64,000 bases of DNA from the sequence record OM362897.1, one strand, 5' to 3'. This document shows positions 7,682 to 56,599 of this stretch, in pieces (within the stretch, counting starts at the first letter, position 1; every line of letters starts with the position of its first letter). Below the pieces are notes generated by a model that made no database searches, was not told the origin of the DNA, and was given only the letters and a program-made list of their open reading frames with translations. The translations under genes and the position numbers were made by a program. The stretch is from Escherichia phage SKA64.

Positions 7682-8032
7682 ATGAGTAATTTTGATGAAA
7701 TTCAAGAACTTGTTTGGGATTTATCTGGTGATGTGGATTACATTTCAGATTATCTTTCAAAAGTTTACCCTGGGGTAAGCGTTATGATTGTGACCAAAGA
7801 TCCAATTAGTTTGCCTCCCAATGTTGTAGCTTGTTGTGGAAGTGGTTCAGGAGAAGTAGAGCCTGTATCTCGTTGGGAATTAACTAAAGCTGTTTCAAAA
7901 CGAAACGGTGAAGTTTTGAATATTGATATTGAGCAAATATGGACTTCTCCAGCAGCCAAATGGAATGATCCAAATGGTTGGGATTTGTTCTTCTGGGATA
8001 ATGAGACTGATGATGAGGTGTTTTTAAAATGA
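7682..8032 (+). CDS. hypothetical protein (116 aa)
   Basis: ORF with RBS; acidic C-terminal half. Confidence 0.55.
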   Translation: MSNFDEIQELVWDLSGDVDYISDYLSKVYPGVSVMIVTKDPISLPPNVVACCGSGSGEVEPVSRWELTKAVSKRNGEVLNIDIEQIWTSPAAKWNDPNGWDLFFWDNETDDEVFLK

Positions 8033-11158: not shown

Positions 11159-11331
11159 TGAAAATATTACGAGTGAATATTGAAACTGCTTGGTGTGGAT
11201 GCAATGAGGTTGTGGATATCGAAATTGAAGATGATATGTCTCAAGAGGATATAGAAGATCTTGCACACGAAACCTTTCAGGATTATTGTAATTACGGGTT
11301 CCATATTTTAGAGGAGGAAGAAGATGTATAA
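11158..11331 (+). CDS. hypothetical small acidic protein (57 aa, below track cutoff)
   Basis: ATG overlapping upstream TAA, GAGGAGGAGG RBS; found by manual translation. Confidence 0.35.
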   Translation: MKILRVNIETAWCGCNEVVDIEIEDDMSQEDIEDLAHETFQDYCNYGFHILEEEEDV

Positions 11332-11722
11332 TCCAACAGGTATTCTTTTAAAACTTACAGTAACAGACCCTACTCTTTTCATCAAGTTAGCAAGTGGTGA
11401 AGTTTATGAAGTAATGAAAGATGATGACGGTTGGTGTTATCTTTGTGGCTACTTCCTCTGTGATGCAGAAGAGTTAGAATCCATTGTAACTAAAGGTTTT
11501 TATGAAGAACCAGGGTTCCGTGTGGAAACTACGCAGAAACCTGATACCATTACGTTGACTCGACAGGAACTGATCACAATCATTGAAGATGCTTTTATTG
11601 ATGGCTGGAATACACAAGATAATGACTGGGGTGGACCCGAAGCTTTTCTGGAACATCATAAAGCTTATGGAGAATTTTGTGAAACCACTGTAGCTCTTGA
11701 TAATCTGAAGGAGGGTTTGTAA
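11324..11722 (+). CDS. hypothetical protein (132 aa)
   Basis: ORF with GAGGAGGAAG RBS. Confidence 0.55.
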   Translation: MYNPTGILLKLTVTDPTLFIKLASGEVYEVMKDDDGWCYLCGYFLCDAEELESIVTKGFYEEPGFRVETTQKPDTITLTRQELITIIEDAFIDGWNTQDNDWGGPEAFLEHHKAYGEFCETTVALDNLKEGL

Positions 11723-51896: not shown

Positions 51897-53885
51897 TTAA
51901 CCACCAGTGTTAGATTGTCCACTTAGAGTTGAAAGAGACAAACGTTGGAAAATACTATTTCCGCTATTTTGAATTCTTGCATCAAGAATATTTCCAAACT
52001 CTGAAGAAGGGCTGATCGTAACTTTGATAAGATCACTTGGTATTGCTACCGTATTCTCAACAACAGGTTGATTACGAGCCAAACTTACGTTAGGTGTATA
52101 GGCTGATTCACGTAAATCTTCAAGAGGATTACCAAATCCAAAAGCACGTGTCCTTGTTTGTTCTCCTCTCCACATACGACCAATATCTTGTGTATCAATA
52201 CCTGTTAAATTGTACAACCAATCTGCTACAGGATTGCTGTCTCCACTTTGCGTTGCCTCGTATGCTTTTTGTGCCATAGATTTATTAGGATCTGTGTTGT
52301 CTCCAAATGTATCTGGGAATGTTTCTTTAAGCCAATTGGTAAAAGATCCGAAACCATCTCCCAATTCTTTAGCAAAACCTCCTAATTGAACTGTTGTCTT
52401 ACCGAGTTCTTCACCTAAATCTTTGGCAAACTGATCTAGCACTTTAACGTTATCCAGCCAAGAATCATCTTTAGGTAAGGCTTTCACAAAACCCTCTAAG
52501 AAGTGGTTCTGCATACCTTGACCTACAAGCTGAACTGTTGCAGCAAAACGAGTAAACTCTTTAGAAGCATCTATTTGTTCTTGAGTTAATGTTGCACCTG
52601 TTCTTTGAAGCATTTTCAATACTTCATTATACCCTTCGCCGTTTTTACTAAACATACGTTGGTAGTGCATAAGGTCATCACCAAGGTTTTCAAGAAGTCG
52701 CCCGATTTGAGCAGAGTTCATACCTCGACGCTCACCTTCATTAACAGTAGCCTGAATAAAAGCTAAAGGATCGTTCTGTAAAGGTTTAAGCTGTTCTGGA
52801 TTCCATCCAAACAAGTTCATAATGTCATTTATGCCATTATCACCGCCTTTCCACTTCCCTTCTTTCTCATTCCATTTTGAGGCTAAAACTGTATTACCAA
52901 GACGTTCACGAACGTCTTTAATATTATCTATTGACTTAATAATATTTGCAGAGTCTACACCGTTCTGTTCACCCCAAGCTGTCATTGCCAAAATAGCGTT
53001 GGCGTTTGTCTGAACGTTTTCAGCACCACGACTTACAAGTTTAATTCTTTCGTTAGTATTCATCAACGTGTTACCAACTACAGAACCACCTGCAAACAGC
53101 CCAGCACCTATCAAAGAGGATGCAATCATGCGTGGATTAAGACCTGCTGCACCTTCTTTTAATTGTCCATATCGACGATCACGATCACGTTTTTGTTGAG
53201 CTAATTCACGCTTACGGTTGCGTTCTATATCTCTAAGTTCACGATTTCGCATACGTATACGCATTTTAGCTTCTGCTTCTAGCTCTCTACGAATACGGCG
53301 ACGACCGCGAACCTCGTCTTCTATTTCGGCATTCTTTTCACGATGAGATCTGCGTAAGGCATCTAACTGGTGAGCAAGAGCTTGGTTCATACGTTGAAGA
53401 GTTATTTCACCCTTTTTGTATTGCTCTACAGCTTTACCCATAACGTCCCTAGCTTCTTGCATAGCACCAGGACTGGCTTTACTAAATGCTCTTGCTCGGT
53501 AGTTAAAGTTCTGCAAACGAAGATTACCTAAATCTTCCCTACGTGCTGCTGCTTTAGCTTCGCGTTCAGCAGCTTTACGAGCTTTTTCTTCTTCTCTTCC
53601 TTGCGGGGTTTTAGGAGTTCTAGGTCTACCAGATCCGCCTACAGGAGCACCCGCTCCAGCGGGAGTAGGTGCTCGCATAGGTTTTTGACTTTGAGTTTGA
53701 GCTTTCTTAAGTTCACGCTCAATCTCTTTCATTTGTTGTCTAAACTTGGTCATGTTCATAGTGGGTTGCATTTTATTTGCAAACTTCTGAACACTCAACA
53801 CGGCATCTTTTGCTTCCTTGAGACTGTTCTTGTCCACCTTAAACGTAACCACGTTACTAATTTTGGAGGCGTTAATTTCTAACAA
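51897..53885 (-). CDS. tail tape measure protein (662 aa)
   Basis: Immediately after frameshifted chaperone pair; long Arg/Glu/Lys coiled-coil region. Confidence 0.7.
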   Translation of the reverse strand: MLEINASKISNVVTFKVDKNSLKEAKDAVLSVQKFANKMQPTMNMTKFRQQMKEIERELKKAQTQSQKPMRAPTPAGAGAPVGGSGRPRTPKTPQGREEEKARKAAEREAKAAARREDLGNLRLQNFNYRARAFSKASPGAMQEARDVMGKAVEQYKKGEITLQRMNQALAHQLDALRRSHREKNAEIEDEVRGRRRIRRELEAEAKMRIRMRNRELRDIERNRKRELAQQKRDRDRRYGQLKEGAAGLNPRMIASSLIGAGLFAGGSVVGNTLMNTNERIKLVSRGAENVQTNANAILAMTAWGEQNGVDSANIIKSIDNIKDVRERLGNTVLASKWNEKEGKWKGGDNGINDIMNLFGWNPEQLKPLQNDPLAFIQATVNEGERRGMNSAQIGRLLENLGDDLMHYQRMFSKNGEGYNEVLKMLQRTGATLTQEQIDASKEFTRFAATVQLVGQGMQNHFLEGFVKALPKDDSWLDNVKVLDQFAKDLGEELGKTTVQLGGFAKELGDGFGSFTNWLKETFPDTFGDNTDPNKSMAQKAYEATQSGDSNPVADWLYNLTGIDTQDIGRMWRGEQTRTRAFGFGNPLEDLRESAYTPNVSLARNQPVVENTVAIPSDLIKVTISPSSEFGNILDARIQNSGNSIFQRLSLSTLSGQSNTGG

Positions 53886-53905: not shown

Positions 53906-54654
53906 TTAAACAAGTTTCTTAAACAAATCTGACATTTTATTTGTCTGGTTTTGATGTTTTCTCTTTATTGAAGTGTCTTTAACATACATGGCTTCAACAT
54001 ACTCTTCGTATGTTAAATACTCATATAGTTTTAAAAGATAATCTACACCGTAGTTATCCAATGTTTTCAGTGTTTCCGAGGTATCTTTAACGACTTTGCA
54101 AAGAATAACCTCATACCACTTCAAAGTAAGGGTTTTCGTTGCTGTGTCGATAGCATGTTCAATCGCAGGTGTTAATTTGCTGCTAAACTCGTCATCGCCT
54201 GAAGCTGTGTGAACAGTTTTCCGAAACCTCGTTTGAAAAAAGGGCCGTAGTTTACCTCCAGAACTTTAGCAGTAAGATCTAACACTAGTTCTGGGTGAGC
54301 CATAAATAATTCATCAAAATTTTCTGCAACGTTATAACCGTCTTGAGTATAAACCTCATCTAAAATTTTACGCAAAAAGACCGTTAAATTCTTTTCTTCC
54401 AAACCTGCAAAAAGTTGGATCAGTGCCATAGCAATACGTGACTCAAGGTCTTCGTCTGCGGACATTGTTGCTGTGCTATACATAGTCATAGGAACAACCA
54501 GAACACTACCCAATTCTGGAATCCTGTCAAACACTTTAGATGGACTCCACTTCATAATACGGAAAGTAACAGATCTGTTTCCATCTAACGGAATCTCAAC
54601 TACTTCTTCTGGTCGAGCATATTTTTGAATTGTGTTATCTTGTTCTTGTGACAT
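53906..54654 (-). CDS. tail assembly chaperone, -1 frameshift-extended product (GT-like)
   Basis: -1 frame is open from the slippery site through ORF 53906..54124; manual translation across the junction gives ...YGPFF-QTRFRKTVH...TLTLKWYEVILCK... Confidence 0.45.
54172..54654 (-). CDS. tail assembly chaperone (G-like, 160 aa)
   Basis: Located between tube and tape measure; acidic. Confidence 0.55.
   Translation of the reverse strand: MSQEQDNTIQKYARPEEVVEIPLDGNRSVTFRIMKWSPSKVFDRIPELGSVLVVPMTMYSTATMSADEDLESRIAMALIQLFAGLEEKNLTVFLRKILDEVYTQDGYNVAENFDELFMAHPELVLDLTAKVLEVNYGPFFKRGFGKLFTQLQAMTSLAAN
54235..54241 (-). other. -1 programmed ribosomal frameshift slippery heptamer T_TTT_TTC
   Basis: Zero-frame codons CCT TTT TTC (P-F-F) about 20 codons before the chaperone stop. 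Confidence 0.5.
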
Positions 54655-54671: not shown

Positions 54672-54697
54672 TAAAAAGGGCATTTCTGCCCTTTATT
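54672..54697 (-). terminator. stem-loop / attenuating terminator after tail tube gene
   Basis: AAAGGGCA-GAAA-TGCCCTTT hairpin followed by T-rich run. Confidence 0.5.
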
Positions 54698-54699
54698 TA

Positions 54700-55179
54700 T
54701 TATTGAATTGTCAGAGCAGAGATTGAGTTAAGGGTGCTCAAACCTACACCAACTTCATTACGCAGAAGGCTTGCATCTTTAAGACCAATAACCCATTGGT
54801 TCTCTGTAATCATTTCGCCAATAGTATCTTCAGGCTGACTTTGAATCCATCCAATCGTGCTAATGTAATAGCCACGTGGGTCTTCCAAGTAAACACTGAA
54901 CGCTACTTGACGAGTAGAATACATTGTTTGTGCATATGTTGCAAGTACTTCGTTAGCTGGAGATGTGCGTTGCAAAGACATTGTGAGTGTTCCTAAACGG
55001 TTACGACTCAAAGCTAGTGAAACGTCGCCATCAGTCCCTGAATAAGGGTTGATAATATCGTTAGATTTAGCAATAACGATTTTAGTATCAGCCGCAAAAC
55101 CCCACGGTTCCCAACCACCTAATGAAAGGATAACTTGAGATGGGTCGTAGGCCATTACGCCAGTAAGCATTTTATCCAT
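54700..55179 (-). CDS. tail tube protein (159 aa)
   Basis: Small gene between sheath-sized gene and chaperones. Confidence 0.5.
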   Translation of the reverse strand: MDKMLTGVMAYDPSQVILSLGGWEPWGFAADTKIVIAKSNDIINPYSGTDGDVSLALSRNRLGTLTMSLQRTSPANEVLATYAQTMYSTRQVAFSVYLEDPRGYYISTIGWIQSQPEDTIGEMITENQWVIGLKDASLLRNEVGVGLSTLNSISALTIQ

Positions 55180-55225: not shown

Positions 55226-56599
55226 TTAGTTTGCAGTACGGTTAGTCAGGACGTTGACCTGAACTTTAACGTAATGGAAGAAGCCAGCGTAAACATATTC
55301 AATCTTCATCCCATCGACCAGACGAGCATTGATTTGCGCATCAGTCATATCGGCACGAGAAGGAATATAAACAATAGGTTTCAGATCGACACGCAAACCA
55401 GTCTCTTCAGAAGTAACAACTTCATTAGCGATGGAACCGTTGAGGATACCTACTTGGATCGGGTTAGCCAGAACAGCTTGTCGGATCAAAGCCAGACCGT
55501 TTGAAGTAGCACGAACACCACCACCCAGCATAGACTGTTGTTTAAACAGTGTAAACAGTGATTCTTCTGTGCGAGCTTTAAACCACAAAGCATGAACAAC
55601 ATAGTCAACAAAGAAACCGCTAACCATCAATCCATCACGATAGAACAGAGTTCCATGCTCTTTACGATAGATGTTACCGTTCTGTTGAACAATATTGTTT
55701 TCCGAAGTCTGATCCAGTTTCTCGATCTCTACACCTACCAGTGTTTTACCGTGAAGAGTAGTTAAACCAGGTTGACGAGAACAGATTGCACCAACAACTG
55801 CTGCTTCTGGGAATACAGAATCTGCATCGGTCATCCACAAAGCAAAGCAAGTGTTATTATAACCGAGGTCATTCAGTCGTTCCAGAACGTTATCTTCTGC
55901 TTTCGTTTTAATTCCAGGTTCAGAGCTAGAGAAGAAGTAAACTTTATCATTCTCTTCTACCCATGCAGCCAAAGCTAGAACATCTTCTGTTTCATGGGAA
56001 TCTGAAAGGGTCCAGAACCAGCTACTATCAATATCATGCAGAGCAGCAATATCTTCCGTAATAGCATTAGCATAGACAGTTTCTTGGGTGAAACCTGTGC
56101 TGTCAATAGAACCAAACTTACCTTCTACTGGAGTGAAAGTCATTGCAGCGCCGTTGTTAGCTACTGTAAACAGTGGGCCATAAACAAGATCTGCATTGAT
56201 CATTTCAGTCAGACCAACTACAATCTCTTGTGCAGTTGCAGTGTCATCAGCAATGAATTTAAATTCTTTTTTCTTGGTACCATTTTTGATGGTAATTGTG
56301 TAAGTTGCACTATCTTCTACGATTGGAGTTAGAGTAAAGTTTGTAACTTCACGCTTACCAACCATGACTTGATCTGGTGGGAACAAACCGTTAAACAGTT
56401 TGACTGCCATAATATACGCTGGATCATTTAATCCATAACCTGCTTCCAAAAGTGCATCGGAAGAAGAGTAATATTGAATCGCTTCGCCAGTTACGTTCTG
56501 ACCTGTAAGGATCAGGGGAATATCGAACTGGGTTTCACGAATTGATGTAGCACCATACAGTAAAGTTACGGTTGCTACCTTTTCACGAAAAGTTGCCAT
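55226..56599 (-). CDS. tail sheath protein (457 aa)
   Basis: Sheath-sized gene upstream of tube/chaperone/tape-measure order typical of contractile tails. Confidence 0.55.
   Translation of the reverse strand: MATFREKVATVTLLYGATSIRETQFDIPLILTGQNVTGEAIQYYSSSDALLEAGYGLNDPAYIMAVKLFNGLFPPDQVMVGKREVTNFTLTPIVEDSATYTITIKNGTKKKEFKFIADDTATAQEIVVGLTEMINADLVYGPLFTVANNGAAMTFTPVEGKFGSIDSTGFTQETVYANAITEDIAALHDIDSSWFWTLSDSHETEDVLALAAWVEENDKVYFFSSSEPGIKTKAEDNVLERLNDLGYNNTCFALWMTDADSVFPEAAVVGAICSRQPGLTTLHGKTLVGVEIEKLDQTSENNIVQQNGNIYRKEHGTLFYRDGLMVSGFFVDYVVHALWFKARTEESLFTLFKQQSMLGGGVRATSNGLALIRQAVLANPIQVGILNGSIANEVVTSEETGLRVDLKPIVYIPSRADMTDAQINARLVDGMKIEYVYAGFFHYVKVQVNVLTNRTAN

What the first reader, a model, noticed from the sequence alone, without database searches (positions are those of the whole stretch)
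54172..54260. Programmed -1 frameshift in the tail assembly chaperone
The chaperone ORF contains T_TTT_TTC in the X_XXY_YYZ register, and the -1 frame is open from there through the following 72-aa ORF to a stop just before the tape measure gene. This is the conserved G/GT arrangement of tailed phages and independently supports the tail gene assignments.
Basis: partly seen in the sequence, partly recalled or inferred. Interest (0 to 1): 0.5.

Follow-up and report, generated by a model that had tools for sequence, protein, structure and literature searches.

The report
Tail chaperone programmed -1 frameshift
A phAPEC8-like E. coli phage makes a short and a long form of its tail assembly chaperone by letting some ribosomes slip back one base on a run of Ts; this is the well-known lambda G/GT trick, real here but not annotated in this phage group's database records.

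Summary
The window is a Phapecoctavirus, identical over this region to Escherichia phages nieznany and tuntematon. On the minus strand the order is sheath, tube, 160-aa tail assembly chaperone (54172-54654, Pfam Phage_TAC_15), a 72-aa "hypothetical" ORF, then the tape measure gene. T_TTT_TTC (54241-54235) sits in X_XXY_YYZ register and overlaps a second in-register heptamer, C_CCT_TTT. The -1 frame is open from 54265 to the stop at 53908-53906, giving a 249-aa fusion (...GPFFQTRFRK...).

One genome alone is weak evidence; comparison is decisive. All 58 related loci keep an in-register heptamer and a 74-98-codon -1 extension (one is cut by a contig end). Fifty-seven have T_TTT_TTC; Rheinheimera phage Barba1A has G_GGA_AAG. 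The extension evolves as protein and has no conserved start codon. Synonymous variation is suppressed at the site.

I found no downstream RNA structure. A GGAGGT lies 12 nt upstream and may stimulate slippage as in dnaX.

The homologous site in the Felix O1-like phage Moogle is already annotated as a frameshift, and a 2025 paper describes the motif in sister families. This is a new member of a known kind: it corrects annotation and is mechanistically ordinary.

The parts
54172..54654 (-). Tail assembly chaperone, short form (TAC-N, G-like), 160 aa, product of standard decoding
   Evidence: ORF. Pfam Phage_TAC_15 E=1.3e-23 and phrog_3840 E=2.8e-55. RefSeq names it 'tail assembly chaperone' in phage nieznany. 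AF2 model has pLDDT 73.6, and confidence falls after about residue 140.
54235..54244 (-). Slippery tract CCCTTTTTTC, made of two overlapping in-register heptamers: C_CCT_TTT (54244-54238) and T_TTT_TTC (54241-54235)
   Evidence: T_TTT_TTC is invariant in 57 of the 58 related loci. Both heptamers belong to the H_HH.U_UU.Y class, which is among the most efficient in E. coli (PMC4066793).
54254..54259 (-). Shine-Dalgarno-like GGAGGT, 12 nt 5' of T_TTT_TTC; candidate upstream stimulator (inferred)
   Evidence: Duplex with the anti-SD is -10.6 kcal/mol, in the top 0.4% of positions in the locus. A comparable motif is present in 21 of 31 distinct relatives and in Moogle. It is built from minority codons, GAG at 24% and GTA at 30%; relatives use GTG at 11%.
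54175..54265 (-). Overlap window in which both the 0 frame and the -1 frame are open (91 nt)
53906..54235 (-). The -1 frame extension (T-like part): 109 codons plus a stop. The fusion CDS is complement(join(53906..54235,54235..54654)) and encodes 249 aa.
   Evidence: Third-codon-position substitutions dominate beyond the chaperone stop. The C-terminal domain is conserved in the -1 frame of outgroups at E=1e-20 and 3e-19.
53906..54124 (-). 72-aa ORF annotated as a separate hypothetical gene in some records; it is the 3' part of the extension
   Evidence: phrog_16039, unknown function. Annotated separately in ZCKP1 and phAPEC8 and omitted in nieznany. Its TTG has no SD and lies inside the conserved domain.
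51897..53885 (-). Tape measure protein gene, starting 20 nt after the extension's stop
   Evidence: phrog_16051 tape measure, 1249 bits. RefSeq annotation.
54700..55179 (-). Tail tube protein gene, immediately upstream
   Evidence: phrog_280 and Pfam KPP10_Orf10. It follows the sheath gene at 55226-56599 (phrog_205).
54675..54694 (-). Terminator-like hairpin plus T-run between the tube and chaperone genes (context, not part of the frameshift signal)
   Evidence: Annotated as a terminator in phAPEC8.

Best explanation
This is a programmed -1 ribosomal frameshift in the tail assembly chaperone gene of a Phapecoctavirus.

Most ribosomes read the chaperone ORF to its stop and make the 160-aa short form. 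A minority slip back one base while decoding C_CCU_UUU_UUC. The tRNA-Phe pair re-pairs UUU/UUC to UUU/UUU, or one codon earlier the tRNA-Pro/tRNA-Phe pair re-pairs CCU/UUU to CCC/UUU. These ribosomes then read 109 more codons in the -1 frame and produce a 249-aa long form, M1-F140 followed by QTRFRK...KKLV. The long form shares the folded chaperone domain and replaces a roughly 20-residue tail with a variable linker and a conserved, probably helical, domain of about 70 residues.

By analogy with lambda gpG/gpGT, the shared N-part coats the tape measure protein. The frameshift-only C-part recruits the tube protein. The slip frequency fixes the ratio of the two forms.

Shown here: the sequence anatomy, its conservation, and coding selection on the -1 frame. 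Inferred: that slippage is ribosomal, how efficient it is, that the upstream GGAGGT stimulates it, and which partners the two parts bind.
For: Anatomy:
- The heptamer is in register, the -1 frame is open from 54265 to 53906, and the junction is GPFFQTRFRK.
- Gene identities and the order sheath, tube, chaperone, extension, tape measure are confirmed.

Conservation:
- 15 GenBank loci from Stephanstirmvirinae and Vequintavirinae, with chaperone identity down to about 24-30%, all keep T_TTT_TTC in register and an 80-92-codon -1 extension ending just before the tape measure gene.
- So do 39 IMG/VR loci, which carry 28 distinct complete extensions; one of the 39 is cut by a contig end.
- So do phi92 and Aeromonas phage 4L372D and the Felix O1-like phage Moogle.
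- Rheinheimera phage Barba1A has no T-run. It carries G_GGA_AAG three codons downstream, followed by a homologous -1 domain. The signal was replaced but the function was kept.

Selection:
- Beyond the chaperone stop, substitutions in the -1 frame concentrate at third positions, for example 22/9/45 and 11/8/36.
- Conserved residues lie upstream of the only start-like codon. Four of 13 relatives have no ATG, GTG or TTG there at all, and no relative has a convincing SD.
- Synonymous-codon identity across 13 diverged chaperone genes peaks at 0.71-0.90 over residues 131-150, against 0.49 overall.
- blastn between distant genera matches only the 56 nt around the site.

Mechanistic plausibility:
- Both heptamers are in the high-efficiency H_HH.U_UU.Y class in E. 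coli, and U_UU.U_UU.C is used by IS elements (PMC4066793).
- The AF2 model of the short form loses confidence after about residue 140, so the shift sits at a domain boundary.

Precedent:
- Moogle's homologous site is annotated as a joined CDS and reported as a translational frameshift.
- PMC12846349 infers the same GTTTTT-type frameshift in Vandenendeviridae and Andersonviridae.
Against: - There is no experimental evidence for the fusion protein in this phage group. The rV5 proteomics paper does not mention it, and chaperones are not expected in virions.
- No stable or covarying downstream structure was found: z = 0.13 and 0.67, and only weak RNAalifold consensus. Efficiency may therefore be low. 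This also holds for lambda G/GT.
- The extension matches no Pfam family, including the lambda T and P2 E' families. Its binding partner therefore rests on analogy only.
- One of the two IMG/VR scan patterns contained the NYG[CP]FF motif. This biases sampling towards keeping the Phe-Phe pair, though not towards the synonymous codon choices.
- The SD-like motif is absent in 10 of 31 distinct relatives.
Confidence: 0.9

Rival explanations
1. Transcriptional slippage. RNA polymerase adds one extra U on the T6 tract, and ordinary translation of the U7 mRNA gives the identical 249-aa protein.
For: The site is a homopolymer run, and the protein product cannot be told apart from the ribosomal one. Conservation of the T-run fits this model as well as it fits ribosomal slippage.
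Against: The run is only 6 nt. Productive bacterial transcriptional slippage is described on runs of about 9 A or T (PMC5009743). The run is never lengthened in any of the 57 relatives that carry it. Barba1A replaces it with G_GGA_AAG, a classic ribosomal heptamer that is not a homopolymer. An SD-like element at dnaX-like spacing makes sense only for ribosomes.
Confidence: 0.05
2. Two independent genes. The downstream ORF is translated on its own from TTG at 54124, or from a non-canonical start, as current GenBank annotations imply, and the heptamer is incidental.
For: Several records annotate a separate hypothetical protein. The ORF listing finds a 72-aa ORF starting at TTG.
Against: No SD-like sequence precedes the TTG. 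The TTG lies inside the conserved motif L-T-L-K-W, and conserved residues extend about 16 codons upstream of it. Annotated starts differ in every genus, and rV5 gp050 is given a CTG start at the slip site. Four of 13 relatives have no start-like codon at all. The -1 frame is never interrupted between the heptamer and the domain, even though the linker varies greatly in length and sequence. Synonymous sites at the heptamer are frozen.
Confidence: 0.04
3. A chance arrangement with no functional recoding, or a sequencing indel in a gene that is really a single ORF.
For: Within one genome, an in-register canonical heptamer in a 30-codon overlap is expected about 13% of the time.
Against: The same two-frame layout appears in more than 120 independently sequenced Phapecoctavirus-like records and in hundreds of records from related genera. 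No single-ORF fusion homologue appears among the 41 database proteins; all are about 160 aa.
Confidence: 0.01

Closest known systems
Citrobacter phage Moogle (Ounavirinae, Felix O1-like) 'tape measure chaperone' with an annotated translational frameshift; also the GTTTTT-type TAC frameshift inferred for Vandenendeviridae and Andersonviridae (PMC12846349)
   Same: The chaperone is homologous in fold (BFVD hit to the Moogle chaperone, probability 0.96). The local motif matches: ANFGSFF against VNYGPFF. Both have T_TTT_TTC in register, GGAGG 13 nt upstream, and a -1 extension of 78 codons (Moogle) against 88 (window) ending at the tape measure gene. The Moogle record carries a joined CDS, and the paper states a translational frameshift. 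PMC12846349 uses the same kind of argument, an uninterrupted -1 frame and a conserved poly-T motif.
   Different: It is a different family or subfamily; the window is Stephanstirmvirinae. The window has an extra overlapping heptamer, C_CCT_TTT, because the preceding codon is CCT rather than AGT. Neither the Stephanstirmvirinae or Vequintavirinae records I inspected nor any paper in the searchable library annotates or describes the frameshift for this group.
Phage lambda gpG/gpGT (Levin 1993; Xu, Hendrix & Duda 2004, 2013, 2014)
   Same: [quoted passage not shown] Both give a short major product and a long minor product sharing the N-terminus. Neither needs a strong 3' structure. The expected role is to set a fixed ratio for tail assembly (PMC5009743). 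Barba1A, a homologue of the window's chaperone, uses lambda's own heptamer G_GGA_AAG.
   Different: Lambda is a siphovirus, its heptamer is G_GGA_AAG, and there is no detectable sequence similarity. The window's extension matches no Pfam family, so the lambda T family was not matched. This phage is a contractile-tailed myovirus.
Phage P2 gpE/gpE+E' (from my own knowledge: Christie et al. 2002; slippery T_TTT_TTG)
   Same: Both are myovirus tail chaperones with a -1 shift on a T6-type heptamer, between the tube gene and the tape measure gene. P2-type efficiency is reported as 2- to 3-fold above lambda's (PMC5009743).
   Different: There is no detected homology, since Pfam P2 GpE families were not hit. 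P2's extension overlaps the tape measure gene, whereas here it stops 20 nt before it. The P2 heptamer and citation are from memory and were not checked here.
E. coli dnaX -1 frameshift signal
   Same: A Shine-Dalgarno-like element lies about 10-14 nt 5' of the heptamer. The spacing rule is from my own knowledge (Larsen et al. 1994). Here GGAGGT sits 12 nt upstream with -10.6 kcal/mol.
   Different: dnaX also has a strong 3' stem-loop and shifts at about 50% on A_AAA_AAG. No 3' structure is detectable here, and the SD-like element is not universal among relatives.

Membership tests
G/GT-type tail assembly chaperone with programmed -1 frameshift (Xu, Hendrix & Duda 2004) | The gene pair lies between the major tail or tube gene and the tape measure gene | tested here: met
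   The order on the minus strand is sheath 55226-56599, tube 54700-55179, chaperone 54172-54654, extension to 53906, tape measure 51897-53885.
G/GT-type tail assembly chaperone with programmed -1 frameshift (Xu, Hendrix & Duda 2004) | A second reading frame overlaps the 3' end of the first in the -1 frame and has no translation start of its own | tested here: met
   The overlap is 91 nt and the -1 frame is open from 54265 to 53906. The only start-like codon is an SD-less TTG inside the conserved domain, and 4 of 13 relatives have none.
G/GT-type tail assembly chaperone with programmed -1 frameshift (Xu, Hendrix & Duda 2004) | A canonical X_XXY_YYZ slippery heptamer in 0-frame register inside the overlap | tested here: met
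   T_TTT_TTC at 54241-54235 and C_CCT_TTT at 54244-54238. Both are in an efficient class in E. coli.
G/GT-type tail assembly chaperone with programmed -1 frameshift (Xu, Hendrix & Duda 2004) | The arrangement is conserved in diverged relatives despite low sequence similarity | tested here: met
   All 58 related loci keep a heptamer and a -1 extension (one extension is cut by a contig end), and one lineage uses a different canonical heptamer. There is a peak of synonymous-site conservation at the site.
G/GT-type tail assembly chaperone with programmed -1 frameshift (Xu, Hendrix & Duda 2004) | The upstream protein belongs to a tail assembly chaperone family | tested here: met
   Pfam PF21822 Phage_TAC_15 at 84.3 bits against a cutoff of 22. 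phrog_3840. BFVD structural hits to annotated chaperones. No PDB relative by Foldseek, and only a weak sequence hit to 5ir0 at E=0.015.
G/GT-type tail assembly chaperone with programmed -1 frameshift (Xu, Hendrix & Duda 2004) | Both the short and the frameshifted long protein are made, in a set ratio needed for tail assembly | not testable with these tools
   This needs expression, Western or MS work and slip-site mutants. No such data were found in the searchable literature.
G/GT-type tail assembly chaperone with programmed -1 frameshift (Xu, Hendrix & Duda 2004) | The frameshift-only C-part is homologous to a known T-type domain (lambda T, P2 E') | tested here: not met
   No Pfam family matched the 72-aa ORF or the extension at E<=0.1. 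The only matches are phrog_16039, 10409 and 8811, all of unknown function. T-domains are not conserved across phage groups, so this does not count against a shared mechanism.
dnaX-type stimulated -1 frameshift signal | An upstream Shine-Dalgarno-like element at stimulatory spacing | tested here: met
   GGAGGT at 54259-54254, 12 nt from T_TTT_TTC, -10.6 kcal/mol, top 0.4% of positions. Whether it functions has not been tested.
dnaX-type stimulated -1 frameshift signal | A stable stem-loop or pseudoknot 5-9 nt downstream | tested here: not met
   MFE z-scores are 0.13 for 100 nt and 0.67 for 50 nt. RNAalifold consensus energies are -6.6 and -3.4 kcal/mol, with no supported downstream helix. There is no Rfam match.

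The most novel reading that the evidence does not exclude
The signal may be composite and evolvable rather than a bare heptamer. It would consist of two overlapping high-efficiency heptamers (C_CCU_UUU_UUC), which give ribosomes two consecutive chances to slip, plus a dnaX-like upstream anti-SD pairing site (GGAGGU, 12 nt away). That site is maintained with rare codons from Felix O1-like phages to phAPEC8-like phages, and there is no 3' structure. This would set a higher short-to-long ratio than lambda's, possibly one sensitive to host physiology. The switch from T_TTT_TTC to G_GGA_AAG in Barbavirus would document wholesale replacement of a recoding signal within one protein family.
Probability: 0.3. 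Interest if true: 0.35.

Novelty: new member of a known kind. Interest (0 to 1): 0.25.

Why it matters
The main value is in annotation. phAPEC8-, phi92-, rV5- and PVP-SE1-like phages are common therapy and biocontrol candidates. The fusion query matched 358 phage records, and 135 of them covered at least 80% of it across the two frames. The records I inspected either list a spurious "hypothetical protein" with inconsistent starts or leave a gap, and none gives the 249-aa long chaperone. The correct feature is complement(join(53906..54235,54235..54654)) with ribosomal slippage.

The site also independently confirms the tube, chaperone and tape measure assignments. It gives a clean natural series for studying how slippery sites and optional SD-like stimulators are kept or replaced: the heptamer is invariant across at least four subfamilies or genera and is swapped for G_GGA_AAG in one lineage. 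It does not change what is understood about frameshifting or tail assembly.

Tried and rejected
- **Downstream stimulatory structure:** single-sequence folds of 50 and 100 nt are no better than shuffles. RNAalifold on 11 Stephanstirmvirinae-like and 13 Vequintavirinae sequences gives only weak helices without covariation, and one of them includes the slippery site itself. Rfam has nothing relevant. I conclude no 3' stimulator is detectable.
- **Conserved GGTTTCGG 7-9 nt downstream:** I considered it as a second slip site or RNA element. It is better explained by dual coding, G-F-G in frame 0 and R-F-R in frame -1. It is not a canonical heptamer.
- **Natural single-ORF fusion homologue:** I searched with the 249-aa fusion. 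All 41 hits are chaperones of about 160 aa covering 57-64% of the query.
- **Fold of the long form:** A single-sequence AF2 run on the extension gave pLDDT 47.7, which shows only helical propensity.
- **Structure searches with the short-form model:** PDB Foldseek found no match at E<=0.001. The PDB sequence-profile search gave only 5ir0 at E=0.015.
- **Within-window null:** many ORFs have long -1 "extensions", but these are simply the next gene after a 1-40 nt overlap. This test therefore does not discriminate on its own.
- **+1 frame:** it closes after 4 codons.
- **Literature:** I found no description of this frameshift for rV5, phAPEC8, phi92, PVP-SE1, Stephanstirmvirinae or Vequintavirinae in the held library.

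Full report
**What is in the sequence**

The genes around the finding lie on the minus strand. In order they are a tail sheath gene (55226-56599, phrog_205) and a tube gene (54700-55179, phrog_280). Next come a 160-aa ORF (54654->54172), a 72-aa ORF (54124->53906) and a 662-aa tape measure gene (53885->51897, phrog_16051). The 160-aa ORF is a tail assembly chaperone. It matches Pfam Phage_TAC_15 at 84.3 bits against a cutoff of 22, and phrog_3840 at E=2.8e-55. The 72-aa ORF matches only families of unknown function.

The chaperone reads ...GTA AAC TAC GGC CCT TTT TTC AAA CGA.... The -1 frame is open from 54265 to the stop at 53908-53906, 20 nt before the tape measure start. It passes through the chaperone's own stop (54174-54172) and the whole 72-aa ORF. 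The junction is ...GPFFQTRFRK... and the fusion is 140 + 109 = 249 aa. The +1 frame closes after four codons.

C_CCT_TTT (54244-54238) is a second canonical heptamer in register. It overlaps the first and gives the same protein. GGAGGT lies at 54259-54254, 12 nt upstream of T_TTT_TTC.

**Is it more than chance?**

Within this genome alone, only weakly. Canonical in-register heptamers occur at 0.0043 per codon in the window's ORFs, so about 0.13 are expected in the 30-codon overlap. For T_TTT_TTC specifically the expectation is about 0.007. CCCTTTTTTC occurs once in 64 kb, at this site, against 0.26 expected anywhere. Many ORFs in the window are followed by a long -1 "extension", but that is simply the next gene after a short overlap, so this test does not discriminate. 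The case rests on comparison with relatives.

**Source**

The region is 100% identical to Escherichia phages nieznany and tuntematon (Phapecoctavirus, Stephanstirmvirinae). It is at least 99% identical to 64 records.

**Comparative evidence**

tblastn with the fusion found 358 phage records. In 135 of them the two halves align in two frames and cover at least 80% of the query.

I examined 15 GenBank loci. They span Phapecoctavirus, Justusliebigvirus, KP13-16, Vequintavirus (rV5), Henunavirus, Seunavirus, Certrevirus, Avunavirus and unclassified Vequintavirinae. Chaperone identity to the window falls to about 24-30%. Every one has T_TTT_TTC in register. Every one has a -1 frame that opens just upstream of it and runs 80-92 codons past the chaperone stop, ending just before the tape measure gene.

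The same holds for 39 IMG/VR loci carrying 28 distinct complete extension sequences; one locus is cut by the contig end. One caveat applies: one of the two scan patterns contained NYG[CP]FF. That biases sampling towards keeping Phe-Phe, though not towards particular codons.

phi92 and the more distant Aeromonas phage 4L372D also keep T_TTT_TTC. So does the Felix O1-like Citrobacter phage Moogle.

The most informative case is Rheinheimera phage Barba1A. It has no T-run at the homologous position. It has G_GGA_AAG, lambda's heptamer, in register three codons downstream, followed by a 74-codon -1 extension. A profile of the 13 extensions finds the Barba1A and 4L372D domains at E=3e-19 and 1e-20, and only in that frame. 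The signal was replaced while the frame link was kept.

**The extension is coding and has no start of its own**

The 13 predicted fusions align from end to end. They share a conserved VNYG(P/C)FF-x-RFR junction, then a linker that varies in length and is often rich in Gly and Ser. A conserved C-terminal domain of about 70 residues follows.

Beyond the chaperone stop, substitutions between relatives concentrate at third positions of -1 frame codons. Examples are 22/9/45, 11/8/36 and 18/10/52 for positions 1/2/3. Inside the overlap the pattern favours the 0 frame, as expected if the short form is the major product.

In the window, the only ATG, GTG or TTG in the -1 frame before the conserved domain ends is the TTG at 54124. 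It has no SD and encodes the second L of the conserved L-T-L-K-W motif. Conserved residues (TPAIEHAIDTATKT) lie upstream of it. Four of 13 relatives have no start-like codon there at all.

Annotated starts for the "hypothetical protein" differ from record to record. rV5 gp050 is given a CTG start at the slip site. Nieznany's RefSeq record omits the ORF altogether. None of 41 database homologues of the fusion is a single-ORF fusion; all are about 160 aa.

**Constraint at the site**

I measured how often identical residues use the identical codon across the 13 diverged chaperone genes. The fraction is 0.49 overall and 0.3-0.5 along most of the gene. It rises to 0.71-0.90 in windows covering residues 131-150. 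Nucleotide identity there is 0.75-0.79 against 0.55 overall. In line with this, megablast from rV5 to two distant phages matches only the 56 nt from the SD-like motif through the heptamer to GGTTT.

**How it most likely works**

Both heptamers are of the H_HH.U_UU.Y type. Sharma et al. list this type among the most efficient -1 motifs in E. coli, and U_UU.U_UU.C is used by IS elements (PMC4066793).

I found no downstream stimulator. Folding z-scores are 0.13 and 0.67. Comparative folding gives no supported helix. Rfam has no match.

The upstream GGAGGT pairs with the anti-SD at -10.6 kcal/mol, which is in the top 0.4% of positions in the locus. A comparable motif is present in 21 of 31 distinct relatives and in Moogle with the same spacing. 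It is built from minority codons: GAG is 24% of Glu codons, and GTG in relatives is 11% of Val codons. From my own knowledge of dnaX (Larsen et al. 1994), an SD-like element 10-14 nt upstream stimulates -1 shifting. I therefore propose it as an optional stimulator. This is inference.

The AF2 model of the short form has pLDDT 73.6 and loses confidence after about residue 140. The shift therefore swaps a floppy 20-residue tail for the linker and C-domain.

By analogy with lambda (PMC5009743), the shared N-part should bind the tape measure protein and the frameshift-only part should bind the tube protein. Neither form is expected in virions. That division of roles was not tested here.

**Rivals**

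- *Transcriptional slippage* on T6 would give the same protein. The run is short compared with the roughly 9-nt runs described for bacteria. It is never lengthened in relatives. Barba1A's replacement heptamer is not a homopolymer.
- *Independent initiation* of the 72-aa ORF is contradicted.
- *Chance or sequencing error* is excluded by hundreds of independent genomes.

**Comparison with what is known**

The kind is textbook: lambda G/GT, P2 E/E+E', and the survey by Xu, Hendrix and Duda (2004). The homologous site is already recognised in a related family. Moogle's GenBank record carries a joined "tape measure chaperone" CDS, and its paper states a translational frameshift. I confirmed that Moogle's site is AG T_TTT_TTC with GGAGG 13 nt upstream. 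The short-form model also hits Moogle's chaperone in BFVD.

A December 2025 paper infers a conserved -1 frameshift with a GTTTTT motif across Vandenendeviridae and Andersonviridae. It notes that these families are related to Vequintavirinae (PMC12846349).

For Stephanstirmvirinae and Vequintavirinae themselves I found no record that annotates the join. This covers the related records I opened, the rows and the 60 sampled rows. I also found no paper in the held library that describes it.

**Verdict**

It is a new member of a known kind. It is useful for correcting annotation, with some mechanistic interest in the tandem heptamers, the optional SD-like element and the heptamer replacement. It would not surprise a specialist.

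Noticed in passing
window 54675-54694 (minus strand): A terminator-like hairpin (AAAGGGCAGAAATGCCCTTT followed by a T-run) sits between the tube gene stop (54700) and the chaperone start (54654). phAPEC8's record annotates it as a terminator. It may lower chaperone and tape measure expression relative to sheath and tube.
   Followed up: partly
L056 (Rheinheimera phage Barba1A) 1530-1536 and 1832-2470: This distant homologue uses G_GGA_AAG instead of T_TTT_TTC for the chaperone frameshift. It also has a 639-nt reverse-strand 'putative DNA binding protein' gene inserted between the extension ORF and the tape measure gene.
   Followed up: partly
L007 (rV5) 1151-1519: rV5 gp050 is annotated as an ORF overlapping the chaperone gene by about 108 nt, with a CTG 'start' right at the slip site. 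The annotators saw the long -1 ORF but did not join it.
   Followed up: yes
GenBank MG0656xx records (e.g. MG065650, MG065652, MG065689): About 20 records labelled 'Campylobacter phage' with host C. jejuni are 98-100% identical here to E. coli Phapecoctavirus, Justusliebigvirus or rV5-like phages. They carry no annotation, and the host labels look doubtful.
   Followed up: no
window 7682-8032 (+) and 11324-11722 (+): Two other ORFs end with an in-register canonical heptamer in a short overlap with a long -1 frame ORF: T_TTA_AAA near 8023 and G_GGT_TTG near 11713, with overlaps of 13 and 16 nt. These are most likely ordinary adjacent genes with overlapping stop and start codons.
   Followed up: no
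window 54220-54227 (minus strand; GGTTTCGG) and the homologous position in all relatives: The octamer GGTTTCGG, 7-9 nt downstream of the heptamer, is almost invariant across subfamilies. It encodes G-F-G in frame 0 and R-F-R in frame -1. Dual coding probably explains it, but a role in frameshifting cannot be excluded.
   Followed up: partly
L057 (phi92) 125-217: The phi92 RefSeq record annotates a 'Hypothetical tRNA' inside the tail sheath coding sequence, which is probably spurious.
   Followed up: no
L055 (Aeromonas phage 4L372D) 1905-2224: About 320 nt with no annotated gene lie between the end of the -1 extension and the tape measure start, whereas the gap is 20 nt in the window.
   Followed up: no
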